A stretch of DNA of 59,048 nt from the IMG/VR virus record IMGVR_UViG_3300036845_000232, positions 1 through 59,048 of that record; one strand, written 5' to 3'. Made by a program: the position numbers and the translations under genes. Shown here piece by piece: positions 36,522 to 55,686 of the stretch; within the stretch, counting starts at the first letter, position 1, and every line of letters starts with the position of its first letter. Origin of the DNA: a virus (lineage: Duplodnaviria; Caudoviricetes). The notes beneath the pieces are model-generated. The model had not been told where the DNA came from, made no database searches, and saw nothing but the letters and a program-made list of their open reading frames with translations.

Positions 36522-37130
36522 ATGAAGCTCTTCCGCAACCTCGCGGCAGCGGCCGGCATCGCGCTGTCGATGCTCGGCGTCGCCGCCCTGACGCTGGCGC
36601 CGGTCGCCAACGCGCAGGTCATCACCTCGACTACGAACCCGCGGCAGGCGACGCCGCGCCAGTTCCAGACCCAGCAGACGCACTTCATCCGCGCCACGCT
36701 CAACTTCAATATGTGCGTGCAGTCGTCGAACGCGTGCACGGTCAAGCTCGCCAACGCGAGCCTGCCCTATAACTCGATCGTCAAGGCGGTGACGGCCTAC
36801 GTCTACACCGCCTTCAACTCCACCACCTCGGACGTGCTTATTCTCGGCACCACGTCGGCGAATGCGAACGAGATCGTCTCTTCGACGATGAATATCCATT
36901 CGCAGGCGACCGTGACGGGCACCGTGGTGGCGACTGCGTTCAACTCGACCGGCAACACGGTCGCGCAGTCCGGCACCAACGGCGGCCTCGATCTGTGGGT
37001 GAAATGGACGGCGGGCACCGGCAACACCGCGACCGCTGGTCTCGTCTCTCTGGTGATCGAGTATTTCCCGCCGATCGACGGGCTGTGCACGCCGAACATC
37101 GCGCAGGGCGCCGCACCCGCGGGCTGCTGA
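36522..37130 (+). CDS. Putative capsid decoration protein with Sec signal peptide
   Basis: MKLFRN-hydrophobic-ANA/Q; LPYNSIV..V..AFNS..L.LGT; follows the capsid gene. Confidence 0.7.
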   Translation: MKLFRNLAAAAGIALSMLGVAALTLAPVANAQVITSTTNPRQATPRQFQTQQTHFIRATLNFNMCVQSSNACTVKLANASLPYNSIVKAVTAYVYTAFNSTTSDVLILGTTSANANEIVSSTMNIHSQATVTGTVVATAFNSTGNTVAQSGTNGGLDLWVKWTAGTGNTATAGLVSLVIEYFPPIDGLCTPNIAQGAAPAGC

Positions 37131-37143
37131 TCGCCTCAACCTG

Positions 37144-37168
37144 AAAGGCCGGGGTGACCCGGCCTTTT
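37144..37168 (+). terminator. Rho-independent terminator
   Basis: AAAGGCCGGG-GTGA-CCCGGCCTTTT. Confidence 0.7.
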
Positions 37169-37241
37169 CTCACGACGTCGCTGCCGCCGACGGACGCGGC
37201 CCGGGCGGAACCGGGCAATCCCCTCATCAAAGGCAGCAGCC

Positions 37242-37928
37242 ATGTCCGTTTTTCGTCGCCTGTTCGTGGGCGAGCTCATTTTCGAATCCGCGCAAGACGG
37301 CGTCGTCGCCAAGGCCGGCGGCGGCCAGACCAACGCGTTCAATCTCGGCCCGACCGAGATGAACCGCATCACCACGGTCGCGACCGCGGGTGACAGCGTG
37401 AAACTGCCGCCGGCGCAGCCGGGGCTTGGGCTGATCGTGCTCAACCACGGCGCCAACCCGATGCAGGTGTTCGGCACCGAGGGCGACACCATCAACGATG
37501 TCGCGACCGCCACCGGCGTGTCGCAGATGGCGAACTCCTGGGTGTTCTACGGCTGCTTCACCGCAGGCGCCTGGTACACCGAAGGCCTTGCCTCGGGCTT
37601 TGCGTCGGGCTTCGCCACGTTCTCGGCGGTCGATAGCCTCACGGCACTCGCCGGCGGCGGCCAGGCGGGCGCGACCCCGATCACCCGCATGTACAACCGC
37701 TTCTCGACGGTCGCGACCGGCGGTGACAGCTCGCTCCTGCCGGTCTCCAAGTCCGGCATGGAGATCACCGTCACCAATGCGGGCGCGGCGTCGATGAACG
37801 TGTTCCCGGCGACCGGCGAGGCGATCAATGCGGGCGCGGCCAACGCCGCCTTCGCGGTCGCGGCCGGCAAGACGGCGACGTTCTACTGCGCCACCGCGGG
37901 GCAGTGGCACACGATCTTGTCGGCGTAA
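37242..37928 (+). CDS. Virion protein with two tandem ~105 aa domains
   Basis: AGGGQ...NR.TTVAT.GDS..LP...GA..M.VF..G..IN occurs twice. Confidence 0.75.
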   Translation: MSVFRRLFVGELIFESAQDGVVAKAGGGQTNAFNLGPTEMNRITTVATAGDSVKLPPAQPGLGLIVLNHGANPMQVFGTEGDTINDVATATGVSQMANSWVFYGCFTAGAWYTEGLASGFASGFATFSAVDSLTALAGGGQAGATPITRMYNRFSTVATGGDSSLLPVSKSGMEITVTNAGAASMNVFPATGEAINAGAANAAFAVAAGKTATFYCATAGQWHTILSA

Positions 37929-37966
37929 GCCAGACACCACCCTTTCGCCAACAGGAACACGCCACC

Positions 37967-38464
37967 ATGGCCAAGCTTGTCTATCAGCCGACGCCGGATG
38001 ATCCCGACGCGACCACGGTCGCCGGCCTCACCTTCGCGGCCTACGAGCCGACTGAACTCGACGACGGCACCCAAGCCGACCTCATCGCCAAACTCAAGCG
38101 CAATCCCTGGTTCGCGCTCGACGTGCCGGATCAGGCCCGCTTCCTGAAATGGAAGTCGGTGCGCGACGCACAGAACCAGGCAGCCTCGCATCGGGCGGCC
38201 GCCGACCATCTCGATGCCAACCCGGAAGCGGCTGCGGCACATGCCGATGCGGCGTACTCGCAGGCGGATAGCGTCCTCGCCGACGCTCGCGCCCGGGCCG
38301 CAACCGCCATCGCGCAGGCGCACGAACTCGTCGCCCGCGCGCAGGCCGAGGCGGATGCGATCCTCGCCAATGCACACGCGGAGGCCGACGCGATCAAGGC
38401 TGTGGCCGGCGCGCCCGCACCGCAGGCCAATCAGACCAGCACCCAGGCGGGCGGCAACGCCTGA
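37967..38464 (+). CDS. Hypothetical protein (Ala-rich C-terminus)
   Basis: AGGA RBS; LIAKLKRNPWF. Confidence 0.7.
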   Translation: MAKLVYQPTPDDPDATTVAGLTFAAYEPTELDDGTQADLIAKLKRNPWFALDVPDQARFLKWKSVRDAQNQAASHRAAADHLDANPEAAAAHADAAYSQADSVLADARARAATAIAQAHELVARAQAEADAILANAHAEADAIKAVAGAPAPQANQTSTQAGGNA

Positions 38465-38472
38465 CGTGCTGC

Positions 38473-38528
38473 GCGCCGGGCCGCGGCCCGTAAAGCCTAA
38501 TGCGCCCGTAAAGCGCACGGCCCGGCGC
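38473..38528 (+). ncRNA. Three-way junction with two identical CCGTAAA loops
   Basis: 11-bp perfect outer stem enclosing two hairpins. Confidence 0.6.
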
Positions 38529-38562
38529 AACCCTCTTTCCCTCTCGCCGCATGAGGACCGAC

Positions 38563-39105
38563 ATGGCCAAGACGCAAGGGGCGCCCACGAGCGCGCCGGA
38601 CGATAAGCCGACGAAAAAGACCACCGCGGAGCTGATCTACCATCCCGAGGAAGGCGACCCGGCGAAGACGATGTGGGGCGGCATCCGCTTCCTCGCCAAC
38701 GTGCCGACGCCGGTGGCGCTCACCCACTGCATCACGGTTCCGATCCGCAAGGAGACGGTGCTGCCCGACGGCACGATGCAGTCGAAGAACGTGGAGACGC
38801 GCGTCTCCCTGGTCGAGCTCGCGCGCAACAACCCGCATTTCTCGGTCGACGGCGAGCGCGCGCAGCGCAAGACCGCATCCGCCCGCCAGCCGACCGATCC
38901 CGACACCTATCGCGGCTATGCGGTGGGCTGGATTTCGACGTCGACCTCCGCGCGCGAGATGGATGCGCGCTGGGAGGCGGAAGCGAGCCTGCGCGATAAA
39001 TGCGGTCTCGAGCAGCGCGATATCGCGTGGCTGATGCCGTTCTTCGAGGCGAACCGCGAGCGCGCCGCGGAGGCCGACAACATGGGCGGCGTGCGCGCAG
39101 CCTGA
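38563..39105 (+). CDS. Hypothetical protein
   Basis: GAGGA RBS; WGGIRF..N.P, ARNNPHFSV. Confidence 0.7.
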   Translation: MAKTQGAPTSAPDDKPTKKTTAELIYHPEEGDPAKTMWGGIRFLANVPTPVALTHCITVPIRKETVLPDGTMQSKNVETRVSLVELARNNPHFSVDGERAQRKTASARQPTDPDTYRGYAVGWISTSTSAREMDARWEAEASLRDKCGLEQRDIAWLMPFFEANRERAAEADNMGGVRAA

Positions 39106-39119
39106 TCTGAGCACTCGCC

Positions 39120-39503
39120 ATGGCCGGGCAGTATCGCACCTCGCAGGACCTCGTTACCGAGGTCCTCGCCAATCTGGGCGTGTTATCGCCCGGCCAGAAC
39201 GTCGAGCCGGAAGACTTCAACTACGTCTCCGAGCTGCTCGATCCGATCGTGCGTAAGCTCGCGGCGCTCGAGATCGTCTACATCCCCGACGTCGACAACA
39301 TCCCGGGCGCCTTCTTCAAGGACTTGGCGGACATCGTTGCCGGCGAGTGCGCCAACAAGTTCGGCGCGACGCCGGATGATGCGGTGAAGCTAGTGGCCGC
39401 CGGGCTCGGCAAGCCTGTGGGCTCTGGCACGGCGGCCATGTCGTTGAAGCAGATGCAGCGCGGTCGGCCCACCGGCGAAGTGCAGCCGAGCGAGTATTTC
39501 TGA
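39120..39503 (+). CDS. Head-tail adaptor (P22 gp4-like)
   Basis: TSQDLVTEVLANLGVLSPGQ; size and position before the gp10-like gene. Confidence 0.65.
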   Translation: MAGQYRTSQDLVTEVLANLGVLSPGQNVEPEDFNYVSELLDPIVRKLAALEIVYIPDVDNIPGAFFKDLADIVAGECANKFGATPDDAVKLVAAGLGKPVGSGTAAMSLKQMQRGRPTGEVQPSEYF

Positions 39504-41233
39504 TGGGGACCGGCAAGCCGACGCCGATCCCGTGGCCGCTGTCGTCGTTCCCGGGCGCCAACCCGCAGGAGGGCTCCGGCCGGCTCATCAACTGCTACGT
39601 CGAGCCGGTCGGCGATCCGGCGCTGCCGACCGGGCCATCCCGGTTTCTCTGGCGCCGCTCGCCCGGGCTCACGCAATTCGCCACCACGGCGGAGGCCGCC
39701 AACACCTATCGCGGCGGGCTCATCGTCAACAACCTCTCCTATGAGGTGTGGGCGAACGTCTACACGGCGACCAGCGCGGGGGTGATGACGTCGCTCGGCG
39801 CGCTCGCTGGCACCAAGAAAGTCTCGATCGCGCGCAACCAGGCCGCGGCGCCCGACGTGGTCGCCGTCGATATCGACAACGGCGCGTTTCTCTTCACCGC
39901 GGCCGGCGTCCCGGCGGCGCCGGGCTCCTACAACGGCGGCGGCAACCTTCCCCAGCCCAATTCCGTCTGCTTCCAGGACGGCTATTTCTTCTACACCATC
40001 GGCGACGGCCGCTGCTTTGCCTCTCCGTTGAACTCGGTCGGCACCATCAACACGCAGACCTTCATCACCTGCCAGGCCAAGTCCGACGTCAGCCTGTTTC
40101 GCGGCATTCCCTATTCTGGCCTGCTCTGGCTCTTCACCTCGGGCGACTGCGAAATCTGGCAGGATGCGGCCGGCGTCGCCCCCGCCTTTCCCTACGCCCG
40201 CATGTTCGTGCTCGAGTATGGGCTGATCCAGCCCAATGCCATCGCGGGCTGGGAGACCGGGTTCTCCGAACTGATCTGGGTGGCGCAGGACTTCGGGGTC
40301 TACTGGAATACGCCGGGCACGTTCGCGCCGATCAAGGTGAGCCCGCCCGATCTCGACCGCCTGATCGAAGCGGAGGCGAGGGCTGGCCACAACATCGAGG
40401 CTTCCTGCTACGCCTTCGCGGGTCGGAAATTCTGGGTGCTCGATACCCCGTCGTGGACCTGGGAATTCAACCTCTCGACCAAGAAGTGGAACGAGCGGTT
40501 CTCGCTCGCCACCACGGGCCTGCAAGGCCGCTGGCGCGCCTCGGGCGCACATCCGGCATTCGGAAAATGGCTCGTAGGCGACCGCCAGAGCGGCAATCTG
40601 CTCTTCGTCGACAGCCAGAACTACACCGAGAACTTCTCCCCGCAGCTCTTCCGCATGGAAAGCGGCCCGGTGAAGGACTTCCCGCAGTCGCTGCGCATCG
40701 CGCGCGCCGACTTCGATTTCGACACCGGGGTGGGGCAGAACGTCGGCAACGTCACCACCCAGGTCACAGGTGCTGCAGCGGGCACCGGCGGCGTGATCCG
40801 CCTCGCGGTCAAGCAGACCGGCGGCATGACCACGAACGATATCGTCAACGTCTCGGGCGTCACCGGGACGACGGAAGCGAATGCCGGCTGGCCGGTCACG
40901 GTGGTCGACGGCACCCACCTCGAGCTGCAGGGCTCGGTTTTCGTGCATGCCTATGTGTCGGGCGGCACCGTGGTGGACGTGACGGCGCCACCGAACGTGA
41001 TCGATCCGACCATTGCGGTGTCCTGCTCGAAGAACGGCGGGCGCAGCTACGACAATCCGTCGACCCGCAGCCTCGGGCAGCAGAACAAGGTTCGCCGCAC
41101 CCGCATCTCGGTGAAGAACCGCGGCCTCTCCGGCCCGATCGGGGATCGCTGGCGCATCGAGGCGAGCGATCCGGTGCCGCTGGTGTTCTTCGGCGCAACG
41201 CAATCGAGCGATCCGCGCGAAGTCGGGGCGTAA
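39503..41233 (+). CDS. Tail hub / packaged-DNA stabilisation protein (P22 gp10-like)
   Basis: RLINCY.E, RSPGL, FQDGYF, EIWQD.G...FP, TWEF....KKWNER. Confidence 0.8.
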   Translation: MGTGKPTPIPWPLSSFPGANPQEGSGRLINCYVEPVGDPALPTGPSRFLWRRSPGLTQFATTAEAANTYRGGLIVNNLSYEVWANVYTATSAGVMTSLGALAGTKKVSIARNQAAAPDVVAVDIDNGAFLFTAAGVPAAPGSYNGGGNLPQPNSVCFQDGYFFYTIGDGRCFASPLNSVGTINTQTFITCQAKSDVSLFRGIPYSGLLWLFTSGDCEIWQDAAGVAPAFPYARMFVLEYGLIQPNAIAGWETGFSELIWVAQDFGVYWNTPGTFAPIKVSPPDLDRLIEAEARAGHNIEASCYAFAGRKFWVLDTPSWTWEFNLSTKKWNERFSLATTGLQGRWRASGAHPAFGKWLVGDRQSGNLLFVDSQNYTENFSPQLFRMESGPVKDFPQSLRIARADFDFDTGVGQNVGNVTTQVTGAAAGTGGVIRLAVKQTGGMTTNDIVNVSGVTGTTEANAGWPVTVVDGTHLELQGSVFVHAYVSGGTVVDVTAPPNVIDPTIAVSCSKNGGRSYDNPSTRSLGQQNKVRRTRISVKNRGLSGPIGDRWRIEASDPVPLVFFGATQSSDPREVGA

Positions 41234-41803
41234 ATGGCGACGTCTGCCCCCGCGATCCGCCCGCTGCCGCCGGCCAACACGGCGCTCACGGCCGGCGGGG
41301 GAACCCATAGCGTCGGCCCAGGCTATCAGGGCACGGCGCAGAGCAATGGCAACCCGACCGCGCCGGGCCAGATCAGCCAGGTCTATGCGCAGTATCTCGG
41401 CTCGCTCGACAGCTTCATCCGCGGGGGAAACTTTCCCGCCGTCTCGGTCAACGGCAATGCGGTGCTCACCGTCGTGGGCGGGCAGACCCTCACCGGCGGG
41501 TTCACCGAGACGCCGTTCGACTTCGGCACGGTTACGACAGGCACGATCACGCCGAACCCGTCGAAGTGCCTCAAGCAGAAGGTGACGAACAACGGCGCGT
41601 TCACGATCGCGGCTACCGCGGAGGTGGGCGATCTGGAGCTCCTGGTGACGAACGCGGCGGGCGCGGGCGCCATCACGCTGTCCGGCTTCACCAAGCAGTT
41701 CACCGGCGACGCCTTCGACACCACGAACGGGCACAAGTTCGTCGTCTTCATCTATGCGTTCGATGCCGGTGTGACGGGCGTGCTGGTGAAGGCATTGCAG
41801 TGA
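41234..41803 (+). CDS. Tail needle/fibre-like protein
   Basis: Follows the gp10-like gene; Gly/Thr-rich. Confidence 0.6.
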   Translation: MATSAPAIRPLPPANTALTAGGGTHSVGPGYQGTAQSNGNPTAPGQISQVYAQYLGSLDSFIRGGNFPAVSVNGNAVLTVVGGQTLTGGFTETPFDFGTVTTGTITPNPSKCLKQKVTNNGAFTIAATAEVGDLELLVTNAAGAGAITLSGFTKQFTGDAFDTTNGHKFVVFIYAFDAGVTGVLVKALQ

Positions 41804-42429
41804 GCTTCGGGGCGCCGTTTCCGCCCGGCGGCCCGGTCACGGGCGGCTTCGTGTCGTCGGGCCAAGTCATCGGCTCCGGCACCGTCGCCGGCCTCTCGTT
41901 CGGGGCGATCTCCGCCGATCGCTACCTCGTCGCCGTGGTCGGCGGCATCTATGGCGGCGGCGGATCGATCACCGGCGTCACCATCGGCGGGGTCGCGGCG
42001 ACGATCGTCGCCACCCAGATCAATGCCACGGTCGACGCCGTCATCGCCATCGCGGCGGTGCCTGCGGGCGCCTCCGGCAGCGTCGTCGTTACCGGCCCGA
42101 CATTCGCCGGCGGCGGCACGCAGGTCTTTCTCTACGCGCTCTACGGTGTCGGCAGCGCGACGCCGGTGGCGACCGCGAATTCTGCCGCGAACCCGTCGTC
42201 GCTGCCGCTCAATGGCCTTCCCGGCGGGTCGTTCGCCATCGCCGGCTCGGAAGTGTTCGGCACCATCAATTCGTGGACGAACGCGACGCAGGACAGCCTG
42301 CTCACGCAAAGCGGCAGCGAGCGCGGCGCATCGGCGAGCGCCTCCAACCAGTCCGGCAACATCGCAATCGCTTCAAGCATGACGCCATCGGCGGGCGGCC
42401 CGGCCTCGGTCGCAGCGGCATGGCGATAG
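41800..42429 (+). CDS. Putative tail-associated beta protein
   Basis: GTG coupled start; ADRYLVAVV..ITGVTIGGVAAT. Confidence 0.65.
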   Translation: MSFGAPFPPGGPVTGGFVSSGQVIGSGTVAGLSFGAISADRYLVAVVGGIYGGGGSITGVTIGGVAATIVATQINATVDAVIAIAAVPAGASGSVVVTGPTFAGGGTQVFLYALYGVGSATPVATANSAANPSSLPLNGLPGGSFAIAGSEVFGTINSWTNATQDSLLTQSGSERGASASASNQSGNIAIASSMTPSAGGPASVAAAWR

Positions 42430-42467
42430 GCCTTGCAAGGAATCGCACGCGATATCACAATCGGTTT

Positions 42468-42980
42468 GTGAGCGCCCCTAAACCATTGCCGGACCTTGCG
42501 CGGCTGAGACATTTGTTCTCCTACGATCCGGAGACTGGCGACCTCACGCGCAGAGTAGCATGTGGTCAGCGCGGCCGGGCCGGCGCGATTGTCGGCACCC
42601 TGAACGAGCCGGGCGGATATCTTCGCGTCGTGGTCGACGCGTCGAGTTACTACGTCCACTGCATCATTTGGAAAATGATGAAGGGCCGAGACCCGGCTGT
42701 CATGGTCGACCACGAGGACGGAAATAAACTCAACAATCGCTGGACGAACCTTCGTCTTGCGACGAACGGCGAGAACATCTGCAACAGCCGCCTACGTCGC
42801 GATAACCGCAGCGGCGTAAAGGGCGTGATCTGGGAAGCTGATCGCGAGCGTTGGCTGGCCTACATCACCGTCAACGGGCGCAATACCAAGATCGGCCGCT
42901 TCGAGTCGCTCGCCAAGGCCAAGGGCGCGATCATCGCCGCTCGCATCCGCCTTCACGGCGAATTCTCGCGCGTCGCCTAA
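42468..42980 (+). CDS. HNH-AP2 homing endonuclease
   Basis: YDPETG, VDHEDGNKLNNRWTNLRLAT, NRSGVKGV.W...W.A.I, HGEF; upstream TTGCAA-17-CACAAT. Confidence 0.9.
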   Translation: MSAPKPLPDLARLRHLFSYDPETGDLTRRVACGQRGRAGAIVGTLNEPGGYLRVVVDASSYYVHCIIWKMMKGRDPAVMVDHEDGNKLNNRWTNLRLATNGENICNSRLRRDNRSGVKGVIWEADRERWLAYITVNGRNTKIGRFESLAKAKGAIIAARIRLHGEFSRVA

Positions 42981-43037
42981 AGCGCGCGCAATTCACCTAC
43001 ATCGCTAACCTGTGCCGCCACCCAACGGGAGGCTCCC

Positions 43038-48475: not shown

Positions 48476-49516
48476 ATGAAACGCATGTCGCGCTTTCTGC
48501 TCGCGCTCGCGAGCCTAGCAGCACTGTGGCTGCCGGCAAGGGCGGCGGGGACTCTGCCCATAGCTTTGACGCAACAGTTCAAGTTCTCCGGCTGCTCCAA
48601 CACCTCGGCCGCCTGCGGCCAGCCGCTCAACGGGGGGCTGCTGTATTTCTTCCAAGCCGGCACGGTCGCGACCCGGCAGGACAGCTTCACCGATCCGAGT
48701 CTGACCACCACGAACCCGTGGCCGCTTCCGCTCGATGCCAATGGCCGCGTGCCGCCGTTCTACCTCGCCGACGGGTCCGTGCATGTCCGGCTGACCGACT
48801 CGGCCGGGTTGGTCCAGTTCGACTACCCATCGCTATTGGTGGTTGGGGCGAGCGGGGGTGGCGGGTCCGGCGCGGTGATCGACGTCACTACGATCGCGAG
48901 CGTCGGCGATACCAAGTTTCGTCAGGCTGCGGCGACGCTCTCCGGCTGGGTTCGGCTCAACGGGCTCACGATCGGCTCGGCGACGTCGGGCGCGAGCGAG
49001 CGCGCGAACGCGGATACTCAGGCGCTGTTCGTCTATCTCTACGGCATCTGCGACAATACCCATTGCCCAGTTTCAGGCGGCCGCACAGGTAACGCGCTCA
49101 ACGATTTCAATGCCAACAAGGCATTGACCGTGCCCGATTGGCGCGGGCGGGGCCCTTGGGGCCTCGACGACATGGGCAACGTTGCGGCTGGCACGTACAG
49201 CGGCGTGCCGTTCTCAGGCAGCGACACTGCGACCACGGCTGGCGGCCTTGCGGGTGAGAATGCTCACACGCTCACCACGGCCGAGATGCCGTCGCACAAT
49301 CACGGCGTTACCGATCCGGGGCATAGCCATACGATCAGCTCAACGGCGGGCACGTTCGGCGTCGTTACCGGCTCCGGGGGCGCATCCGCTAATCCGCCTT
49401 CTGTTCAGAGCACGAGCACGGCGACAACCGGCATCACCATCACCAATACCGGCGGTGGCGGCGCGCACAACAACATGGCGCGCATCGTGCTCGGCGTCTG
49501 GTTCATGAAACTATAG
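48476..49516 (+). CDS. Tail fibre/collar-domain protein with signal peptide
   Basis: PLNGGLLYFFQAGT..NPWPLPLDANGR head-binding-like region; PDWRGR, GENAHTLTTAEMPSHNH. Confidence 0.8.
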   Translation: MKRMSRFLLALASLAALWLPARAAGTLPIALTQQFKFSGCSNTSAACGQPLNGGLLYFFQAGTVATRQDSFTDPSLTTTNPWPLPLDANGRVPPFYLADGSVHVRLTDSAGLVQFDYPSLLVVGASGGGGSGAVIDVTTIASVGDTKFRQAAATLSGWVRLNGLTIGSATSGASERANADTQALFVYLYGICDNTHCPVSGGRTGNALNDFNANKALTVPDWRGRGPWGLDDMGNVAAGTYSGVPFSGSDTATTAGGLAGENAHTLTTAEMPSHNHGVTDPGHSHTISSTAGTFGVVTGSGGASANPPSVQSTSTATTGITITNTGGGGAHNNMARIVLGVWFMKL

Positions 49517-49606: not shown

Positions 49607-49680
49607 AGGCGTCTCTCCGGCCATCCCGCAACCCTATCCGCCCCTTCTCCCTCCTGCAACCATCCCGAGAGCCTGTTGAA

Positions 49681-50349
49681 ATGTACGGTTGGCCCACCCG
49701 ACTAGAGCCGGTGAGCAACCGGGAGGACTTCGTCCTGCCGGTGTCGATCTTCGACGATGAGCTCAAACAGCCGATCAACCTCTCGGGCACCAACGGGACC
49801 GCCTTTACTGGCGCAAGCTGGACGGTGACCGACGGCGCGATCGTCACCGCCTCGGTGACCTCGATCGCGATCCCGGCTTTCCCAATCGGCAATCAGTTGT
49901 CCGCGCTGGCGCTCACCGTCGGCACCAATCTCGGCATTCTCGCCGGCGACCCGGTCTCGATCGTCGATCCGTCCGGGCAGAACACCATGCTGGGCTACGT
50001 CATCTCCTACGCGAAGGCGACCGGCGCGCTGGTGGCGCAAATCGGCATGAGCTTCACCTTCGAGATCAGGAAGCAGGGGCCGCATAGCCCGGGCTACGGC
50101 TATGGCGGCTATCCCGCCTTCTTCGACTTCGGCACCCCGAGCGGGAATGCGGCCGAACTCTCCGCATCGCTCGGCAACGGCATCCTCATCACCGAGCTTG
50201 GCTACCTCCAGATCACCATTCCGGAAGTCATGTTCAAGAAGCTGCGCTCCGGGACCTATCGGGCCTCCCTGGTCATGTCGGATTCGGTCAACACGCGGCA
50301 GCTGTTCGTCGCCGATCTGCCGGTCATCTATGGCGGGGTGACGTCGTGA
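49681..50349 (+). CDS. Tail-associated protein
   Basis: 222 aa beta-rich; SNREDF, LGNGI, GTY. Confidence 0.7.
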   Translation: MYGWPTRLEPVSNREDFVLPVSIFDDELKQPINLSGTNGTAFTGASWTVTDGAIVTASVTSIAIPAFPIGNQLSALALTVGTNLGILAGDPVSIVDPSGQNTMLGYVISYAKATGALVAQIGMSFTFEIRKQGPHSPGYGYGGYPAFFDFGTPSGNAAELSASLGNGILITELGYLQITIPEVMFKKLRSGTYRASLVMSDSVNTRQLFVADLPVIYGGVTS

Positions 50350-50885
50350 GCTTGCCGGCAGCCATCCGCGTCAACACGGCGTTTGCGTTTCCCGCTCTCG
50401 TGCAGGGATCGGGACTGGTCACGATCACCAAGGCCAATGGGATTTGGACGGTCGGGTTTTCGGTTGCGGGGCTCGGCATCATCTCGCCGCCCGCCAACGC
50501 GATCCCGACCGACTACGTGATCGCCTACGACGCGGTCGCGGGGACGTTCTTCAAGCTGCCGTTGAGCTTCCTGGTCAGCGCGACGCGCGTCCAGCGGCTG
50601 GTGACGGGCGCGGGTGGTCTGCCAATCATCGCCGGCGATTCGATCGTCAATCTAAACTGTAGCGCTCCGCTCGCGATCTCGGTGCCGCTCGCGGCATCGC
50701 GCGCTGGCGCGCCCCTCACCTTCAAGGACGTCGGCGGGCAGGCATTCGCCAACAACATCACGCTCAATCGCACGGGCGCCGACACCTTCGACGGGCTGAC
50801 CTCGGTTCAACTCACGCAAAACTATCAGGGCATCACGCTCGTGCCGGCGAACGACGGCACCACGGCAGGATGGTCGATCGAATGA
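50346..50885 (+). CDS. Tail fibre adaptor-like protein
   Basis: TFKDVGGQAFANNITL..GADTFDG. Confidence 0.7.
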   Translation: MSLPAAIRVNTAFAFPALVQGSGLVTITKANGIWTVGFSVAGLGIISPPANAIPTDYVIAYDAVAGTFFKLPLSFLVSATRVQRLVTGAGGLPIIAGDSIVNLNCSAPLAISVPLAASRAGAPLTFKDVGGQAFANNITLNRTGADTFDGLTSVQLTQNYQGITLVPANDGTTAGWSIE

Positions 50886-52954
50886 GACGAGCACTCCAGT
50901 TTCTTGCCCTTTGGGCCGCCCTCCTGGGCGGCCTTTTTGTTGGCGACGCGCATGCCCAGACCTTTCCGGGCCAGCTCCAGGCCAACAAGCTCTTGGGCAA
51001 CTGCACCGGCTCGCAGGCCCTCACAACCGCATGCGCTCTTGGGCTCGGCCTCAACAACCTCAATTCCGGAGCGCTCAATGTCGAGCCGGGCTATGCGCGG
51101 CTCTGGCCAGCGCCGGGCCAATCGACGACGCCGACGGCGGCGTGGAGGGCCGTCGACCCGTGGGGCCGACCGATCAACTGCGCAGGCACCAATTCGCAGT
51201 GCCTCAACGAATTCAACGCCGCCGTCTACGCCAATGGCTGGCCGGCGCGCGTGTTCTGCCAGGGGTCGCAGTTTCCCGGCGGGGCCGAGCCGATCTACAT
51301 CAATTCGACGGTCACCATCGTCTTCCCGGTCGGCCAGGACATGGACTACGAGGTCGACGCGACCTGCAATTTCAACATTCAGATCACCGGCGCCGCCTCG
51401 GGTGTCACGATCGACAGCCAGGGCGCGAGCAAGCTCTGGCTCGACGGCAAGATCGTCTACCAGCCGAGCGCGCCGAACGGAAACACGACGACAAACCCGT
51501 CGTGTGCGGTTCTGGTCAATCCGACCACGAATACGGCGGACGGCTTTGCCGGCCTCTATGCCGGCCGCCTGCGGATCAAGGCGCCGGTGGTGGCGCCGCA
51601 GGTGCAGCAAGCCATCACCGGGGCGGCCAACAACGGCGGCGGTCTCATCCGCCTCACGGTGGCGTCGACCTCAGGATGGGCAACCAACGACACCAAGACG
51701 GTCACGTCCATACTTGGCACCACGGAAGCAAACGGAACGTGGCTGATCACCGTCGTCGACTCGACCCATATCGACCTGCAGAACTCGACATTCGCCCACG
51801 CCTATATGTCGGGCGGGTCGGTCTATGGTGTTGCGACCGGAGCGGTGTGCTTCAACACCGCGACCGGCAGCACCATCCAGATGCATGCGATCGAATTGGG
51901 CGAGCTCAACGCCAGCAATATCCTGACGGGCGGCTTCGCGTTCTTCGGCAATCTGGTCTATGGCGCCGGGCTCACCACCGGCTTCATGCAGAACATCGTC
52001 ACGACCGGCCAAGTGCACGGTGCGGTGCAGAAGGGGACGGCGGTCGGATTCACCGGCGACCCCCATCAGGTGAACTACAACGGCAATCAGTGGCAGATCA
52101 ACAACTGCCAGATGGCGATCGTCGCCGGCTCCGCGGTCTCGCGCTGTCTCGACAGCTTCGCATCGAGCGACAGCTACCAGCTCGGCCCGATGAACAACGC
52201 CCAAGGCGGGCTCACCAGCGGTGTCGTGCTCGAATCGGGCGGATCGTTCAATACGGTCAATTATGCCAGCATCACCGGGGCGACCAGCGTAAACGTCATC
52301 GATAGCGGCACCTGCAACAGCTACTCCGGTCCGCAGGGCAGCCAAGTCTCCTACATCAGCGCGACGGGATCCTGCACCAAATTCCTGCCGCAGAACGCGG
52401 CCACCGGAAACCTCGAAGCAGCGTTCCTCGGTTTCCAGACGGGGCGCTACATCACTGGCCGCGCCTACGAGGCTGGAAGCTCGACCACGCTCTCGGCATC
52501 CGCAAACGTTCTTTATGCGCAGCCGCTCATCATGGACGGCTCGGCGACATGGACCTCGCTCTCGATCGGCGTGCAGGCGACCGGGACGGCGACCGCTTGC
52601 AGGCTCGGCATCTTCAATTCCAGCAACGGCGTTCCGACGACGCTTCTGCTTGATGCCGGAACGGTTGCAGTCACCGGCACCGGAACGCAGTCGGCGACGA
52701 TCAGCCAAGCGCTTCCGGTCGGCTGGTACTTTGGTGTCGTGGTGTGCAACGGCACGGTGACGCTCTACGGATCGTCGCCCGGCAACAACCAGGTCTCGTC
52801 CTATCACGAGGCGATCGGCACGGCCGCGATCGGCGGCGGCATCGACGCGCAGCAGAGCAAAGCCTTCACCTACGGCGTTCTTTCGGGCGCGAGCCCGTGG
52901 GGCACGTCGACGTTCACTGCCGCGACCGTTCCGACGATCGCGCTCAAGATGTGA
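50882..52954 (+). CDS. Tail spike / receptor-binding protein with signal peptide
   Basis: MRR-hydrophobic-AHA/Q; G/T/S/N-rich; C-terminal RLGIFNSSNGVPTTLLLDAG. Confidence 0.7.
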   Translation: MRRALQFLALWAALLGGLFVGDAHAQTFPGQLQANKLLGNCTGSQALTTACALGLGLNNLNSGALNVEPGYARLWPAPGQSTTPTAAWRAVDPWGRPINCAGTNSQCLNEFNAAVYANGWPARVFCQGSQFPGGAEPIYINSTVTIVFPVGQDMDYEVDATCNFNIQITGAASGVTIDSQGASKLWLDGKIVYQPSAPNGNTTTNPSCAVLVNPTTNTADGFAGLYAGRLRIKAPVVAPQVQQAITGAANNGGGLIRLTVASTSGWATNDTKTVTSILGTTEANGTWLITVVDSTHIDLQNSTFAHAYMSGGSVYGVATGAVCFNTATGSTIQMHAIELGELNASNILTGGFAFFGNLVYGAGLTTGFMQNIVTTGQVHGAVQKGTAVGFTGDPHQVNYNGNQWQINNCQMAIVAGSAVSRCLDSFASSDSYQLGPMNNAQGGLTSGVVLESGGSFNTVNYASITGATSVNVIDSGTCNSYSGPQGSQVSYISATGSCTKFLPQNAATGNLEAAFLGFQTGRYITGRAYEAGSSTTLSASANVLYAQPLIMDGSATWTSLSIGVQATGTATACRLGIFNSSNGVPTTLLLDAGTVAVTGTGTQSATISQALPVGWYFGVVVCNGTVTLYGSSPGNNQVSSYHEAIGTAAIGGGIDAQQSKAFTYGVLSGASPWGTSTFTAATVPTIALKM

Positions 52955-52963
52955 GGTGCCGAC

Positions 52964-53272
52964 ATGCGCACTACTGCAGCCATCTTGGCAGTCTTTCTTC
53001 TCACCATTGGCCCGGCGCGATCGGCATCGCCAGATTGCCCGATGGTCGCGAAATACAGCGAGATCGCGGGACGGGCGGTCACGGATATCGGCGCCTACAC
53101 CGCAATGGAACGCGACTTCGTCGCGATCAACGCCGCCCACTGGAAGCAGATGCGGCTGCCGCCGAGCCTCGCCATCCCGGTGACCGCAGACAACCTCTCC
53201 GCCAAGGCGGCTGATTTGCAGAAGGTCGCCAAGGCGCGGATCGACAACCTGCGCGCTGCCGGCTGCCAGTAG
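52964..53272 (+). CDS. Small secreted protein
   Basis: Signal peptide; two Cys at the termini. Confidence 0.65.
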   Translation: MRTTAAILAVFLLTIGPARSASPDCPMVAKYSEIAGRAVTDIGAYTAMERDFVAINAAHWKQMRLPPSLAIPVTADNLSAKAADLQKVAKARIDNLRAAGCQ

Positions 53273-53279
53273 GCGACCC

Positions 53280-54071
53280 ATGCTCACCTTCACCGCCCCC
53301 GCGATCGACATCCCGCGGCTGCCGCAGGCCGTCCTCGACTTCATCACCAACGAGGAAACCGGCGGTAAGGCCTACTACGAAAAGACCGAGATGCATCCCG
53401 ACTGGCCGGGCGGCGCCTCCGGGGTGACGATCGGCGACGGCTTCGACTGCGGCTATTCCGCCGCGGACACCATCCGCCGGGTATGGGGACCGCATCTCGG
53501 GCCGTCGGCGGTCGAAGCCCTTGCGGCGGTCGCTGGCATTAAAGGCAGGCCTGCCGCCTCGCACGCGGCCGAACTCCACTGGATCACGGTGTCCTGGGAT
53601 GCGGCGATCGCCGTGTTCACCGAGGTCGACGTCCCGGAGTGGACCGGCCACGTGGTCGCCGACCTGCCGAATAGCAGCCTGCTCTCCGGGGTGAGCTTGG
53701 GCGCACTGGTCTCTCTCGCCTTCAACCGCGGGCGATCATGGAACATCTCGGCCGAGAACGATCCGGCAGGCCGCTACGCCGAAATGCGCGCCATCAAGGC
53801 GCACATGGCGAGCCAGAACTTCTCCCGCATCCCCGGGGAAATCCTCGCCATGCGGCGGCTATGGCCGGAGGGCGGGGACCTGTGGCGAAGGCGGGGGCAT
53901 GAGGCGGCGCTGTTCACGCAGGGGCTGGGTGCGCCAGTCGCGGTCCCGCAGCCTGCCGCGCCCGCTCCGGCTCCGTCCGCCGCAGCTGCTCCGCACGCTG
54001 CCCCAGCGCCGCGGCCCGCTGCCGCTGCGCGCCCGCGCGTTCTCCCCGACCGCAACGCCACCGAGGCCTGA
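53280..54071 (+). CDS. Endolysin (lysozyme-like, pesticin/GH24-related)
   Basis: EETGG..YY, WPGGASGVTIGDGFDCG, ALVSLAFNRG, LWRRRGHEAALF. Confidence 0.85.
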   Translation: MLTFTAPAIDIPRLPQAVLDFITNEETGGKAYYEKTEMHPDWPGGASGVTIGDGFDCGYSAADTIRRVWGPHLGPSAVEALAAVAGIKGRPAASHAAELHWITVSWDAAIAVFTEVDVPEWTGHVVADLPNSSLLSGVSLGALVSLAFNRGRSWNISAENDPAGRYAEMRAIKAHMASQNFSRIPGEILAMRRLWPEGGDLWRRRGHEAALFTQGLGAPVAVPQPAAPAPAPSAAAAPHAAPAPRPAAAARPRVLPDRNATEA

Positions 54072-54074
54072 CCC

Positions 54075-54461
54075 ATGCGCCGTCTGCCGATTGCCGCGCT
54101 GGCCCTTGTCCTCGCGGTGCCGGCGCTCGCCCGCGATCTCGGCCAGTGGGGCAACGAGGCCTCAGTCGTTCGCGATTGGTACGCGCATCTCATGATGCCG
54201 GATCACCCTGCGGCCTCCTGCTGCGGCGAGGCAGATGCGTATTGGGCGGATGAATTCGAGGTCGAGGGCGATCACTACGTCGCCGTCATCACCGATACCC
54301 GCGACGACGCGCCGTTGAAGCGGCCGCACATCGACCCCGGCACCCGCATCGCGGTGCCGAACCACAAGCTCAAATATTCAGACGGCAACCCCACCGGCCA
54401 TGGCGTGATCTTCGTCGGTCACGGCACGGTCTACTGCTTCGTCACGCCAGCTGGCGGCTGA
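54075..54461 (+). CDS. Secreted Cys-containing protein
   Basis: Signal peptide ALA; SCCGEADAYWAD, GNPTGHGVIF, YCFV. Confidence 0.75.
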   Translation: MRRLPIAALALVLAVPALARDLGQWGNEASVVRDWYAHLMMPDHPAASCCGEADAYWADEFEVEGDHYVAVITDTRDDAPLKRPHIDPGTRIAVPNHKLKYSDGNPTGHGVIFVGHGTVYCFVTPAGG

Positions 54462-54476
54462 CTTCGGAGACCGGCA

Positions 54477-55010
54477 ATGAACACGCTCACGCTCGACCCG
54501 CAGATGCTCGCCGTGATCGGGCAATATATGGTGCTCGGCCTCGGCATGCTGGTCGCCGCCTTCGTGCGCAGCCACATCAAGAACCAGGGCACCGCCGACA
54601 CGCTCGATCGCATCCTGCTCAACGCGGTCAATTTCGGCTTCAACATGGTTCCGGGGGCGCTGAAGGGAAAATCCATCTCGGTCGACCTCGGATCCTCGGT
54701 CGCCGCGCACGCGCTCAAATACGCGCTCGACGTCGGCGCCAAGGAGGCGGGCGCGCTCAATCTCGACGCGCCCGACATCGCCAAGCGGCTGCTTGCGCGC
54801 ATTCCCGGCATCGACGGGCAGATGTCGGCCGGAATCGTCCATGACGTGGTTGCCGCCGCCCAGGGACATCCGCCGCCGCTCGACCCTGCCGCCGTGCTGG
54901 CTTCCCTGCCGGCGGACGTGACCGCTGCCTTGCACGCGGCCCTCGACGGCGTGATCGCCGCCCGCAGCGCGCCGTCGCTGCAACCACAGGGCCGCCAGGC
55001 CGTCGCCTGA
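54477..55010 (+). CDS. Holin-like membrane protein
   Basis: One N-terminal TM plus a soluble helical domain; near the endolysin. Confidence 0.5.
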   Translation: MNTLTLDPQMLAVIGQYMVLGLGMLVAAFVRSHIKNQGTADTLDRILLNAVNFGFNMVPGALKGKSISVDLGSSVAAHALKYALDVGAKEAGALNLDAPDIAKRLLARIPGIDGQMSAGIVHDVVAAAQGHPPPLDPAAVLASLPADVTAALHAALDGVIAARSAPSLQPQGRQAVA

Positions 55011-55041
55011 TCCCGCAATCCTAAGAAACCAGGAGAGACCC

Positions 55042-55686
55042 ATGCGAAAGCTCGCCACCCTCGCGCTCGCCCTCGTGGCTGCGCTCGCCATCGTGCCCGC
55101 CCGCGCACAGGCGCCGGCGCCCGCCTCGCCCAACTGCACCGTCGCCAAGACCACCGGGTTCTACGCTGGCGTCAACGCGATCGGCGTCGGCTCCAACCTC
55201 GATATCGCCGGGCAAGGTCTCGCCGGCAGCCTCTTCGCCGCGGGCGGGCTCGCCGGCGCCAACGTCGGGTTCCAGTATTGCAAGGGCAATTACTTCGGCG
55301 CGGTCGAGCTCTCCGCCGACTATGACCTCTCCGGCATGACGCCGGGGGCAGGGGGTCGCTTCCTGGTGCTGGAGACCATCAAGGCGGGCGGCAGCCTCGC
55401 GAGCCTGATCGGCGGCAGCGCGACGCCGGCAACACCGTCGCCCACCATCAACCTTCCTGCCGCCCTCAACGCGCAGCTGATCTCGCCCTACGTGGTGCTC
55501 GGCGCCGCGCAGCGCTCGTTCGGCACCGGCATGGTGACCGGCGCCGGCATGGACTTCGCGCTCGGCGGCGGATGGTCGCTCGATCTCTCGTACCTCTACA
55601 TCAAGTACGACGGCGCGATGGCATCGTCCGTGCTCGGCGTGAGCAACGAGAACCTGGTCAAGATCGGGCTCAACTACGTCTTCTGA
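55042..55686 (+). CDS. Outer-membrane beta-barrel protein (Omp25/RopB-like)
   Basis: Signal peptide, TGFYAGVN, GAGMDFALGGGWS, C-terminal VKIGLNYVF. Confidence 0.85.
   Translation: MRKLATLALALVAALAIVPARAQAPAPASPNCTVAKTTGFYAGVNAIGVGSNLDIAGQGLAGSLFAAGGLAGANVGFQYCKGNYFGAVELSADYDLSGMTPGAGGRFLVLETIKAGGSLASLIGGSATPATPSPTINLPAALNAQLISPYVVLGAAQRSFGTGMVTGAGMDFALGGGWSLDLSYLYIKYDGAMASSVLGVSNENLVKIGLNYVF

What the first reader, a model, noticed from the sequence alone, without database searches (positions are those of the whole stretch)
36522..55686. Virion-type proteins with Sec signal peptides and paired cysteines
Seen: classical signal peptides on the post-capsid decoration-like protein (36522), the tail collar/fibre protein (48476) and the tail spike (50882), and also on 52964, 54075 and 55042. 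The first three have close Cys pairs (CVQSSNAC; CSNTSAAC and CDNTHC; CAGTNSQC). Known: tailed-phage structural proteins normally fold and assemble in the cytoplasm without signals. Inference: part of this virion is exported, oxidatively folded in the periplasm and added at or after lysis, an apparently undescribed two-compartment assembly route.
Basis: partly seen in the sequence, partly recalled or inferred. Interest (0 to 1): 0.78.

Follow-up and report, generated by a model that had tools for sequence, protein, structure and literature searches.

The report
Phage cement and fibre proteins with export signals
A soil-bacterium phage makes its capsid cement protein, its tail fibre and a tailspike-like protein with ordinary bacterial secretion signals, so these outer parts probably mature in the periplasm, apart from the cytoplasm where the particle is built.

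Summary
All six named ORFs start with Sec-type signal peptides (SPs). By one heuristic they are the only 6 of 43 plus-strand and 0 of 16 minus-strand ORFs so flagged at the ORF start.

Three are ordinary. 52964, 54075 and the OMP-like 55042 lie in the lysis/accessory end, where export signals are expected.

Three are true virion-part orthologues:
- 36522 models as a jellyroll whose best PDB match is the Pam1 capsid cement protein.
- 48476 carries the Pam1-type tailspike head-binding domain.
- 50882 models as a tailspike/depolymerase-like protein.

The SPs are conserved across relatives: about 76 of 76 cement genes next to related coat genes, 106 of 120 fibre homologues, and 18 of 21 spike N-domain homologues.

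SP-less orthologues exist in related phages. They begin at or within a few residues of the predicted cleavage site and lack the cysteine pairs.

Some SP-bearing members have no cysteines, so disulfides are not the only reason for export.

Export, cleavage and joining at lysis are inferred, not shown. I found no paper describing this. This scan has noted the same phenomenon before on other DNA.

The parts
35196..36344 (+). Major capsid protein (no signal peptide)
   Evidence: phrog_334 major head protein, E 1e-67. 36% identical to the Pseudanabaena phage Pam1 MCP.
36522..37130 (+). Capsid cement protein made as a preprotein. SP codons 36522-36614, mature part from 36615. Four Cys: 65/72 and 189/202.
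   Evidence: AF2 model of the mature part: pLDDT 84, pTM 0.80. Best PDB match is 7eel_H, the 140-residue chain of the Pam1 capsid asymmetric unit (E 3.3e-4); GP4 capsid and KHP30/KHP40 cement chains also match. Homologous to SP-less post-MCP proteins: hhalign prob 98.7%, E 1.6e-16. SP conserved in relatives.
39503..41233 (+). P22 gp10-like tail hub protein, no SP. It shares a ~75-residue domain with the spike.
   Evidence: phrog_578, E 3.4e-53. 56% identity to spike residues 245-317, E 8.6e-22.
48476..49516 (+). Tail fibre made as a preprotein. SP codons 48476-48544, then head-binding domain, then tail-collar-type C-terminal part.
   Evidence: Residues 51-103 match N-terminal tail-spike chains of PDB 9vyg (E 1.4e-4). 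Residues 43-97 match 7eeq_A 'Tailspike head-binding domain' (E 0.011). phrog_8763 tail protein, E 3.2e-40. 38% identical to the Pam5 tail fibre from residue 48. Family statistics.
49681..50885 (+). Two tail-region ORFs without signal peptides (49681-50349 and 50346-50885)
   Evidence: No SP at the ORF start. The second has weak PHROG hits, one of them to a baseplate protein.
50882..52954 (+). Tailspike/depolymerase-like protein made as a preprotein. SP codons 50882-50956; 14 Cys.
   Evidence: AF2 pLDDT 80. PDB fold hits are phage tailspikes/depolymerases (8iqe E 4e-7, 6w4q, 6e1r). One domain matches the 201-residue chain 9jwb_Z of the phage A4 capsid, TMt 0.65. 18 of 21 homologues holding its N-domain have an SP.
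52964..53272 (+). Small exported protein, 102 aa, 2 Cys, function unknown
   Evidence: SP. No family in Pfam, PHROGs or NCBIfam.
53280..54071 (+). Probable lysozyme-like endolysin without SP (weak call)
   Evidence: Pfam Pesticin (phage-lysozyme homologue), E 0.0074, below the curated cut-off. No SP.
54075..54461 (+). Small exported protein, 128 aa, conserved, function unknown
   Evidence: SP. The nearest ESM Atlas clusters (score 0.96) are unnamed hypothetical proteins with members from Pseudomonadota and from viruses.
54477..55010 (+). Protein with an N-terminal hydrophobic segment; holin candidate by position only
   Evidence: Sequence. No family hit.
55042..55686 (+). Probable outer-membrane beta-barrel protein with SP; moron-like accessory gene
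   Evidence: Pfam OMP_b-brl, E 3.5e-4, covering the whole profile but below the cut-off. C-terminal residue is Phe.

Best explanation
The window is a complete temperate short-tailed phage with a P22-type portal and a Pam1-type coat. Its nearest relatives in sequenced genomes sit in Bradyrhizobium and allied genera.

Three last-added, surface-exposed virion parts are translated as Sec preproteins:
- the trimer-type capsid cement protein (36522);
- the only protein with a tail head-binding domain (fibre 48476);
- a tailspike/depolymerase-like protein (50882).

Proposed route:
1. The three proteins are translocated across the inner membrane.
2. Signal peptidase I cuts them at AxA, before Gln or Ala.
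3. Where paired cysteines are present, they are disulfide-bonded in the periplasm.
4. DNA-filled, plugged particles are meanwhile built in the cytoplasm.
5. The two pools meet when the holin breaks the inner membrane, and in the lysate afterwards. The exported parts then dock through their unchanged capsid-binding N-arm or head-binding domain.

Shown: the signals, their conservation, orthology to SP-less virion parts, the mature end matching the orthologues' N-terminus (exactly for the fibre, within a few residues for the cement), gain of Cys pairs, and single-copy status.

Inferred: export, cleavage, disulfides, presence in virions, and docking at lysis.

The other three signal-bearing ORFs (52964, 54075, 55042) are ordinary envelope-directed lysis or accessory proteins.
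For: 1. Identity as virion parts.
- The cement model's best PDB match is the 140-residue chain of the Pam1 capsid asymmetric unit. The gene sits directly after the MCP, as the Pam1 cement gene does.
- The fibre has the tailspike head-binding domain.
- The spike has tailspike-type fold hits.

2. Conservation of the signal.
- Cement, database search: 54 hits including the window's own. 52 of the other 53 start with an SP-like N-terminus by eye. The exception, P0165, is a gene call that begins in the C-terminal end of the coat gene.
- Cement, 44 aligned homologues: -1 is Ala in 38, -3 is A/V/S/T in 39, +1 is Gln in 35. Presequence identity is 0.35 against 0.55 for the mature part.
- Cement, beside related coat genes: of 80 IMG/VR loci examined (the best 80 of 189), 76 hold the cement gene after the MCP. 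75 are flagged SP and 1 more is SP-like by eye. The other 4 loci end just after the MCP.
- Fibre: of the 120 listed (393 hits), 106 have an SP-like presequence abutting the conserved mature start. -1 is Ala in 96 and -3 is Ala in 87.
- Spike: 18 of 21 homologues holding its N-domain have an SP.

3. Natural controls.
- Six fibre homologues start Met plus the residue that is +1 in the others, with 0-1 Cys.
- In the complete phage G001 a stop codon lies 8 codons upstream of that Met.
- In 13 prophage loci with 50-58% MCP identity (Neorhizobium, Sinorhizobium, Mesorhizobium, Shinella, Xanthobacter and several MAGs), the post-MCP gene is about 130 aa, has no SP and has 0-1 Cys.
- It is homologous to the SP family (prob 98.7%, E 1.6e-16). 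Its N-terminus aligns within a few residues of the mature N-terminus, and the Cys loop and Cys tail of the SP family have no counterpart in it.

4. Cysteines come in pairs. All 45 aligned cement rows have 4 or 6 Cys. 92 of 106 SP-bearing fibres have the N-terminal pair.

5. No signal-less paralogue of cement, head-binding domain or spike exists in the window.

6. No excess of promoter- or terminator-like sites sets these genes apart from the late operon.

7. Recalled, not from a call: P22 tailspikes and decoration proteins such as lambda gpD, T4 Hoc/Soc and L Dec can be added to finished particles in vitro, and canonical holins open very large membrane holes.
Against: - No experiment supports this, and no cultured phage in the 50,697-record phage collection has the SP-bearing cement or an SP-bearing full-length fibre.
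- Signals were judged by my own heuristic and by eye. SignalP was not available.
- The SP is kept in members with no cysteines, so the benefit of export is unexplained for them.
- The spike has no recognisable head-binding domain, so how it would attach is unknown.
- Docking after the compartments merge must compete with dilution.
- Two cement homologues left out of the alignment (P0125, P0129) have five Cys; the fifth lies in the presequence. A few cement loci show odd mature counts: L094 has 5 and L165 has 3.
- Fold matches for the spike have low TM-scores (about 0.2), as expected for a multi-domain model, so its class rests on E-values only.
Confidence: 0.5

Rival explanations
1. The proteins are exported but are no longer virion parts. 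Former cement, fibre and spike genes were re-used as periplasmic or envelope-directed proteins. Possible roles are destroying or masking the receptor, superinfection exclusion, or exopolysaccharide remodelling. Virions of this clade would then go without them or use the SP-less neighbours 49681 and 50346.
For: - A bacterial precedent exists. Pantoea WceF is a trimeric tailspike-fold enzyme with a cleaved Tat signal (PMC7949094, passages read).
- Phages are known to place exported non-virion genes among late genes (lambda lom and bor, T5 llp, cor; recalled).
- Two SP-less tail-region ORFs could be the real fibres.
- Cement proteins are often dispensable (recalled).
Against: - The parts that only make sense on a particle are conserved. 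The fibre keeps the head-binding domain, whose mature start matches the first residue after Met in SP-less orthologues.
- The cement keeps the N-terminal arm motif shared with SP-less orthologues. In Pam1 that arm contacts the coat E-loop (PMC9698820, passages).
- The genes are single-copy, and no other head-binding domain exists in the genome.
- The genes keep the orthologous positions in the late operon.
Confidence: 0.25
2. The N-terminal hydrophobic segment is a temporary membrane tether or timer and does not lead to full secretion. The proteins would be held at the inner membrane, as SAR endolysins are, and released when the holin collapses the membrane potential. This would stop them binding immature particles too early.
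For: - The cement presequences are long (20-42 residues) and rich in Ala, Gly and Ser. That recalls signal-arrest-release domains (recalled).
- The idea would explain why the SP is kept in Cys-free members.
Against: - Strong conservation of Ala at -1 and -3 (38 of 44 and 24 of 44 in cement; 96 and 87 of 106 in fibre) points to signal peptidase cleavage, not a retained anchor.
- SP-less orthologues start at the predicted cut (fibre) or within a few residues of it (cement).
- A tether of this kind still puts the body of the protein on the periplasmic side.
Confidence: 0.12
3. The signals are annotation artefacts. Translation would start downstream and the proteins would be cytoplasmic.
For: The fibre has an in-frame TTG at codon 31.
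Against: - There is no usable downstream start in the cement gene before the conserved N-arm.
- That TTG is absent from the fibre homologue in L004.
- The presequences keep signal-peptide character across hundreds of diverged homologues while their sequence drifts.
- GC3 of the cement SP codons is 0.97, typical of coding sequence here.
Confidence: 0.03

Closest known systems
Cyanophage Pam1 cement protein and tailspike (PDB 7eel, 7eeq)
   Same: Same coat lineage (36% MCP identity) and same gene order, with the cement gene right after the MCP. The cement models to the same fold. The fibre shares the N-terminal head-binding domain.
   Different: The Pam1 proteins start directly with the mature sequence and have no signal peptide. 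Here both carry a cleavable-type Sec signal and added Cys pairs. No sequence match to the Pam1 cement protein came up in the PDB search; Foldseek aligns the model to it at 19% identity.
SP-less post-MCP ~130-aa proteins in related prophage loci (Neorhizobium, Sinorhizobium, Mesorhizobium, Shinella, Xanthobacter and several MAGs)
   Same: Orthologous position. Homologous by profile comparison: prob 98.7%, E 1.6e-16. They share the N-terminal arm motif.
   Different: They have no presequence, 0-1 Cys, no Cys loop and no C-terminal Cys tail.
P22 tailspike gp9 and add-on decoration proteins (lambda gpD, T4 Hoc/Soc, L Dec). Recalled, not from a call.
   Same: They are peripheral parts that bind finished particles last and can be added in vitro. 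That makes a late joining step mechanistically possible.
   Different: They are made and added in the cytoplasm. None has a secretion signal.
Filamentous phage coat proteins (pVIII, pIII). Recalled.
   Same: Virion proteins made as preproteins, cleaved by signal peptidase. pIII is disulfide-bonded in the periplasm.
   Different: Those phages assemble by extrusion through the envelope. Here an icosahedral DNA-filled head is built in the cytoplasm.
Pantoea stewartii WceF (PMC7949094)
   Same: A tailspike-fold protein with a cleaved export signal. It is one of the fold hits of the spike model (6tgf).
   Different: It is a chromosomal host enzyme with a Tat signal, not encoded in a phage late operon, and has no particle-binding domain.
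Exported morons and exclusion proteins in late operons (lambda Lom and Bor, T5 Llp, Cor). Recalled; a Cor-type lipoprotein is described in PMC4936722 (passage).
   Same: Signal-bearing genes placed among structural or lysis genes. This fits 55042, and perhaps 52964 and 54075.
   Different: Those proteins are not homologues of virion parts. The three proteins at issue are.

Membership tests
Sec-type (signal peptidase I) signal peptide | Basic n-region, uncharged hydrophobic core, small residues at -3/-1, within about 15-40 residues of the start | tested here: met
   Met for all six ORFs by my own heuristic and by eye. AxA is conserved in the families.
Sec-type (signal peptidase I) signal peptide | Score from a trained predictor (SignalP); experimental cleavage | not testable with these tools
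   No such predictor or proteomic data were available.
Sec-type (signal peptidase I) signal peptide | Not a lipoprotein (no lipobox Cys at +1) and not Tat (no conserved twin-arginine motif) | tested here: met
   +1 is Gln or Ala. The spike's own Arg-Arg is not kept in its homologues P0176-P0179.
Pam1-type trimeric capsid cement protein | Encoded directly downstream of the major capsid gene | tested here: met
   Seen in 76 of 80 related loci; the other 4 are cut.
Pam1-type trimeric capsid cement protein | Same fold as the solved cement protein | tested here: met
   7eel_H is the top PDB hit: E 3.3e-4, prob 1.00, TM 0.51/0.60. GP4 capsid and KHP30/KHP40 cement chains also match.
Pam1-type trimeric capsid cement protein | Binds the coat protein on the capsid surface as a trimer | tested here: inconclusive
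   The one complex job (MCP plus cement) gave no answer. The trimer was not tested.
Pam1-type trimeric capsid cement protein | Cytoplasmic protein without a presequence | tested here: not met
   A 31-residue SP is present and conserved. This is the point of difference.
Podovirus tailspike/fibre with N-terminal head-binding domain | Sequence similarity to solved head-binding domains | tested here: met
   9vyg tail-spike chains, E 1.4e-4; 7eeq_A, E 0.011.
Podovirus tailspike/fibre with N-terminal head-binding domain | The domain lies at the very N-terminus of the translated protein | tested here: not met
   It is preceded by a 23-residue SP in the window. The feature is met in six SP-less homologues and in G001.
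Beta-helix tailspike depolymerase | Right-handed beta-helix fold like solved tailspikes | tested here: inconclusive
   Foldseek E 4e-7 to 1e-5 to several tailspikes, but TM is only about 0.2 for the multi-domain model.
Beta-helix tailspike depolymerase | Particle-binding N-terminal domain; catalytic residues | tested here: not met
   There is no head-binding similarity in 50882. Catalytic residues were not examined.
Outer-membrane beta-barrel moron (Lom/OmpX-like), for 55042 only | Match to an OMP beta-barrel family above threshold; own promoter or terminator | tested here: inconclusive
   OMP_b-brl scores 21.2 bits against a cut-off of 28.7. No flanking promoter or terminator was found.
SAR (signal-arrest-release) proteins | Uncleaved weakly hydrophobic N-terminal domain on a muralytic enzyme | tested here: not met
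   Conserved AxA cleavage motif. The proteins are not muralytic by any family search.

The most novel reading that the evidence does not exclude
A whole clade of temperate podoviruses whose closest sequenced relatives lie in Bradyrhizobium and allied genera builds its virion in two compartments. That is at least 76 related contigs for the cement protein, and 393 database hits for the fibre, of which 106 of the 120 examined carry a signal. The DNA-filled core is built in the cytoplasm. The cement, fibre and spike are secreted, trimmed and (mostly) disulfide-bonded in the periplasm. The particle is completed only when lysis merges the two pools. Each part has switched between the cytoplasmic and the exported route more than once in evolution.
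Probability: 0.45. Interest if true: 0.85.

Novelty: new variant of a known kind. Interest (0 to 1): 0.72.

Why it matters
Tailed-phage assembly is taught as a purely cytoplasmic process. If these parts are exported and still end up on the particle, several things follow:
- Assembly has a post-lysis step.
- Virion proteins can carry periplasm-made disulfides, and possibly other envelope-side modifications.
- Particles seen inside cells would be incomplete.
- Host Sec, signal peptidase and Dsb functions would become phage dependency factors.

There are practical consequences too. Annotation pipelines that treat a signal peptide as evidence against a structural role would be wrong for these phages. 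Recombinant fibres or depolymerases from them may need periplasmic expression.

The case is directly testable. Cultured lysogens carry relatives: Bradyrhizobium oligotrophicum S58 and Bradyrhizobium sp. YR681.

Tried and rejected
- The genome search 'relatives' was not available because the window is a virus record. I used the search for related loci instead.
- A complex prediction of MCP plus mature cement gave 'no answer' (score 0.00). It counts neither for nor against binding.
- The first genome-contig scan, with the cement alignment, found nothing. The second, with the MCP alignment, worked.
- Pfam, PHROGs and NCBIfam gave nothing for the cement, the spike, 52964 or 54075. The ESM Atlas only showed that 54075 resembles unnamed hypothetical-protein clusters.
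- Plain sequence search of the PDB gave nothing for the cement or the spike.
- The promoter/terminator scan of 36200-56100 found no excess over shuffles: 2 against 1.8 and 14 against 13.3. The moron-cassette idea got no support, but the sigma-70 consensus may not suit this host.
- A Tat route was rejected, because the Arg-Arg of the spike is not conserved in its homologues.
- Dual initiation (a cytoplasmic isoform from an internal start) was rejected for want of conserved internal starts.
- Five literature searches aimed at export signals on virion proteins, and one following a Cellulophaga lead, found no paper describing them in tailed phages. Passages checked in PMC5723332, PMC3517404 and PMC4936722 were irrelevant or concerned a lipoprotein.
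- The Cellulophaga-phage lead came from earlier scan notes. I could not check it (one search found nothing, and supplements are closed), so virion proteomics of those phages may bear on the claim.
- Lookups of earlier findings by place and by sequence were empty.

Full report
CONTEXT. The 59,048-base window is a virus record with about 66% G+C. It encodes the following:
- an integrase and RecT on the minus strand;
- small and large terminase subunits;
- a P22-type portal, Pfam E 4.3e-91;
- a major capsid protein (MCP), phrog_334 E 1e-67, 36% identical to the Pseudanabaena phage Pam1 MCP;
- a P22 gp10-like tail hub;
- a protein with a weak match to a DNA-ejection family (43068; phrog_598), followed by three unassigned ORFs up to 48390;
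- a fibre/spike block and a lysis/accessory end.

It is therefore a complete-looking temperate podovirus. Relatives by MCP lie in Bradyrhizobium sp. YR681, B. oligotrophicum S58 and MAGs labelled Bradyrhizobium, Pseudolabrys, Roseiarcus, Rhizobiales and Alphaproteobacteria (65-77% identity). More distant ones lie in Neorhizobium, Sinorhizobium, Mesorhizobium, Shinella, Chelatococcus and Xanthobacter (50-58%).

THE OBSERVATION. All six ORFs begin with a basic n-region, an uncharged hydrophobic core and small residues at -3/-1. The quoted cysteine motifs are present. One crude heuristic of mine (not SignalP) flags 6 of 43 plus-strand ORFs at the ORF start, exactly these six, and 0 of 16 minus-strand ORFs. 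It also flagged internal starts in four other ORFs, which I ignored.

Starts are sound.
- The cement gene has no in-frame start between codon 17 (inside the hydrophobic core) and codon 64.
- The spike ATG at 50882 overlaps the upstream stop as ATGA.
- The fibre's only alternative is a TTG at codon 31, which the homologue in L004 lacks.

WHAT THE THREE 'VIRION-TYPE' PROTEINS ARE.

(a) 36522, the cement protein.
- No family or PDB sequence match.
- An AlphaFold2 model of the mature part, built on 45 sequences, is confident: pLDDT 84, pTM 0.80.
- Its best PDB match is the 140-residue chain H of the Pam1 capsid asymmetric unit (E 3.3e-4, prob 1.00, TM 0.51/0.60). A phage GP4 capsid chain and H. 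pylori phage KHP30/KHP40 cement chains follow.
- The size and the annotation of the Pam1 record identify that chain as the cement protein, whose gene directly follows the MCP gene, as here.
- Passages of PMC9698820 describe the Pam1 cement as a trimer whose long N-terminal loop runs under the neighbouring subunit and contacts the coat E-loop. The first 22 mature residues of the model are coil.

(b) 48476, the fibre.
- Residues 51-103 match N-terminal tail-spike chains of PDB 9vyg (E 1.4e-4). Residues 43-97 match 7eeq_A, named 'Tailspike head-binding domain' (E 0.011).
- The rest matches a PHROG tail protein (E 3.2e-40) and the Pam5 tail fibre (38% identity from residue 48).

(c) 50882, the spike-like protein.
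- It is modular.
- Its model (pLDDT 80) hits phage tailspikes and depolymerases: Klebsiella K2-2 TSP at E 4e-7, CBA120 TSP2 and Acinetobacter P1. TM-scores are low, as expected for a multi-domain chain.
- One domain matches the 201-residue chain 9jwb_Z of the phage A4 capsid (TMt 0.65). The A4 paper describes its auxiliary cement gp25 as a carbohydrate-binding module with an N-terminal anchor (PMC12002296, passages). That chain Z is gp25 is my reading and was not checked.
- A 75-residue middle domain is 56% identical to a domain of the SP-less tail hub 39503.
- It has no recognisable head-binding domain.

None of the three has a paralogue in the window.

CONSERVATION OF THE SIGNALS.

Cement, database search.
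- The search returned 54 proteins, including the window's own.
- 52 of the other 53 begin with an SP-like N-terminus by eye. The exception, P0165, is a gene call that begins in the C-terminal end of the coat gene.
- I aligned 44 of them. I left out 8 near-duplicates or variants and P0165.
- In those 44, -1 is Ala in 38, -3 is A/V/S/T in 39 and +1 is Gln in 35.
- Presequences are 20-42 residues long. They are 35% identical pairwise, against 55% for the mature part.

Cement, beside related coat genes.
- I examined 80 IMG/VR loci, the best 80 of 189 relatives, with 66-90% MCP identity.
- 76 hold the cement gene just after the MCP. 75 are flagged SP and one more (L144) is SP-like by eye.
- The other four loci end just after the MCP.

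Fibre.
- 393 hits; 120 were listed and examined.
- 106 have an SP-like presequence of at least 14 residues directly abutting the conserved mature start. -1 is Ala in 96, -3 is Ala in 87, and +1 is Gln in 83 and Ala in 23.
- One more (P0089) is SP-bearing by eye.
- Four have short presequences that look like truncated gene calls, and two start inside the domain.
- Seven start at +1.

Spike. 18 of 21 homologues holding its N-domain have an SP. The other three are partial or N-terminally extended.

NATURAL CONTROLS.

Fibre.
- Six of the seven fibres that start at +1 read Met followed by the same residues that follow the cut in the others, and have 0-1 Cys. The seventh, P0077, has the Cys pair and may be a truncated call.
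- In the complete 60.5-kb phage G001, which has direct terminal repeats, a stop codon lies 8 codons upstream of that Met. That fibre truly has no signal. Yet the same phage's cement protein has one.

Cement.
- In 13 prophage loci at 50-58% MCP identity, the post-MCP gene encodes about 130 residues with no presequence and 0-1 Cys.
- Profile comparison shows it is homologous to the SP family: prob 98.7%, E 1.6e-16, 127 columns.
- Its N-terminus aligns within a few residues of the mature N-terminus of the SP family.
- The first Cys loop and the C-terminal Cys-bearing tail of the SP family have no counterpart in it.
- Of the seven loci at 65% or more, six have an SP-bearing cement, including B. 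oligotrophicum S58. One locus is cut.
- Eight further loci gave no clear post-MCP homologue and were not resolved.

CYSTEINES.
- All 45 aligned cement rows have 4 or 6 Cys, and the optional third pair appears or disappears together.
- Two homologues that I had left out have a fifth Cys, inside the presequence.
- 92 of 106 SP-bearing fibres have the N-terminal pair, 11 have none and 3 have one.
- Three cement loci have no mature Cys (L147, L163, L164), and two complete ones have odd counts (L094 with 5, L165 with 3).
- Among the 152 spike-related proteins listed, those flagged SP have twice the Cys content: 1.6% against 0.79%.
- The four ORFs between the tail hub block and the fibre (43068-48390, 1,763 residues) have no Cys at all.

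The signal is thus more conserved than the cysteines. Cys pairs occur almost only with a signal, but a signal occurs without them.

THE OTHER THREE ORFS.
- 55042 matches the outer-membrane beta-barrel family over its whole length but below threshold, and ends in Phe.
- 52964 and 54075 are small, Cys-bearing and of unknown family.
- They flank a weak lysozyme-like ORF without a signal (53280; Pesticin family, E 0.0074) and membrane-segment proteins (54477, 55724).

Signals on such envelope-directed lysis or accessory proteins are ordinary.

HOW IT MOST LIKELY WORKS.

Shown: conserved signal-peptidase-type signals on single-copy orthologues of a cement protein, a head-binding fibre and a spike-like protein. 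The mature ends match the N-termini of signal-less orthologues, exactly for the fibre and within a few residues for the cement.

Inferred: Sec export, cleavage, disulfide formation where pairs exist, and docking onto cytoplasm-built particles once the holin opens the inner membrane.

Three points of general knowledge (recalled, not from a call) make this feasible:
- Tailspikes are the last part added in P22 and can be added in vitro.
- Decoration proteins bind finished capsids in vitro.
- Canonical holins make very large holes.

The phage's lysozyme-like protein lacks a signal, which fits a canonical large-hole holin. That identification is weak.

RIVALS.
- Exported but re-used for an envelope function, as the tailspike-fold host enzyme WceF is (Tat signal; PMC7949094). 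The conserved particle-binding elements and the lack of any other head-binding protein argue against this.
- A membrane tether or timer. The conserved AxA site argues against this.
- Annotation artefact. This is excluded in practice.

COMPARISON AND NOVELTY. The proteins are variants of known virion parts. The new feature is the export signal, and with it the implied assembly route. Five literature searches aimed at export signals on virion proteins, one following the Cellulophaga lead, and three passage checks found no description.

This scan has already noted signal-bearing fibre-type proteins on other DNA (for example a Bradyrhizobium-type prophage, soil phages and Bacteroidota phages). Those are unchecked AI notes, and I did not test them.

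This window adds the following:
- fold-level identification of an exported cement protein;
- orthologous pairs with and without a signal for both cement and fibre;
- mature ends that match the signal-less orthologues' N-termini;
- a phage (G001) that mixes both routes.

VERDICT. I put the best explanation at 0.5 and interest at 0.72.

Noticed in passing
window 42273-42980 (+): An HNH_3 plus AP2-domain ORF (homing-endonuclease type) sits inside the tail gene block, between the hub-associated genes and the ORF matching a DNA-ejection family.
   Followed up: no
window 40763-40981 and 51614-51832 (+): A ~75-residue domain is shared at 56% identity between the SP-less tail hub (39503) and the SP-bearing spike. 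It gives a weak Pfam E1_FCCH hit and recurs in many database proteins and in Bradyrhizobium phages ppBjS10J-1 and ppBeUSDA76-2. The same module is therefore used in a cytoplasmic and a putatively exported protein.
   Followed up: partly
window 31859-33517 (+): A 552-aa ORF with a Laminin_G_3 (ConA-like lectin) domain lies between the portal and scaffold genes. It has no signal peptide. It may be a head-associated lectin.
   Followed up: no
window 43068-48390 (+): Four consecutive ORFs between the tail hub block and the fibre (1,763 residues) contain no cysteine at all. The three signal-bearing virion-type proteins have 4, 4 and 14. Only the first has a family match, a weak one to a DNA-ejection PHROG.
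   Followed up: partly
window 37242-37928 (+): The 228-aa ORF right after the cement gene matches no family and by eye looks like two similar halves. It could be a second, signal-less head or neck protein.
   Followed up: no
cement, fibre and spike families; window 36615, 50957, 55108: Gln is strongly preferred at +1 after the predicted cut: 35 of 44 cement and 83 of 106 fibre homologues, and also the spike and 55042 in the window. This suggests N-terminal pyroglutamate on the mature proteins.
   Followed up: partly
G001 (L166, L179): A complete 60.5-kb relative with terminal repeats combines an SP-less, Cys-less fibre with an SP-bearing cement protein. The export status of each part has therefore changed independently.
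   Followed up: yes
window 55724-56008 (+): A 94-aa ORF with one N-terminal membrane segment and a coiled-coil-like rest (weak hits only) sits at the end of the late block. It may be a spanin- or holin-type lysis protein.
   Followed up: no
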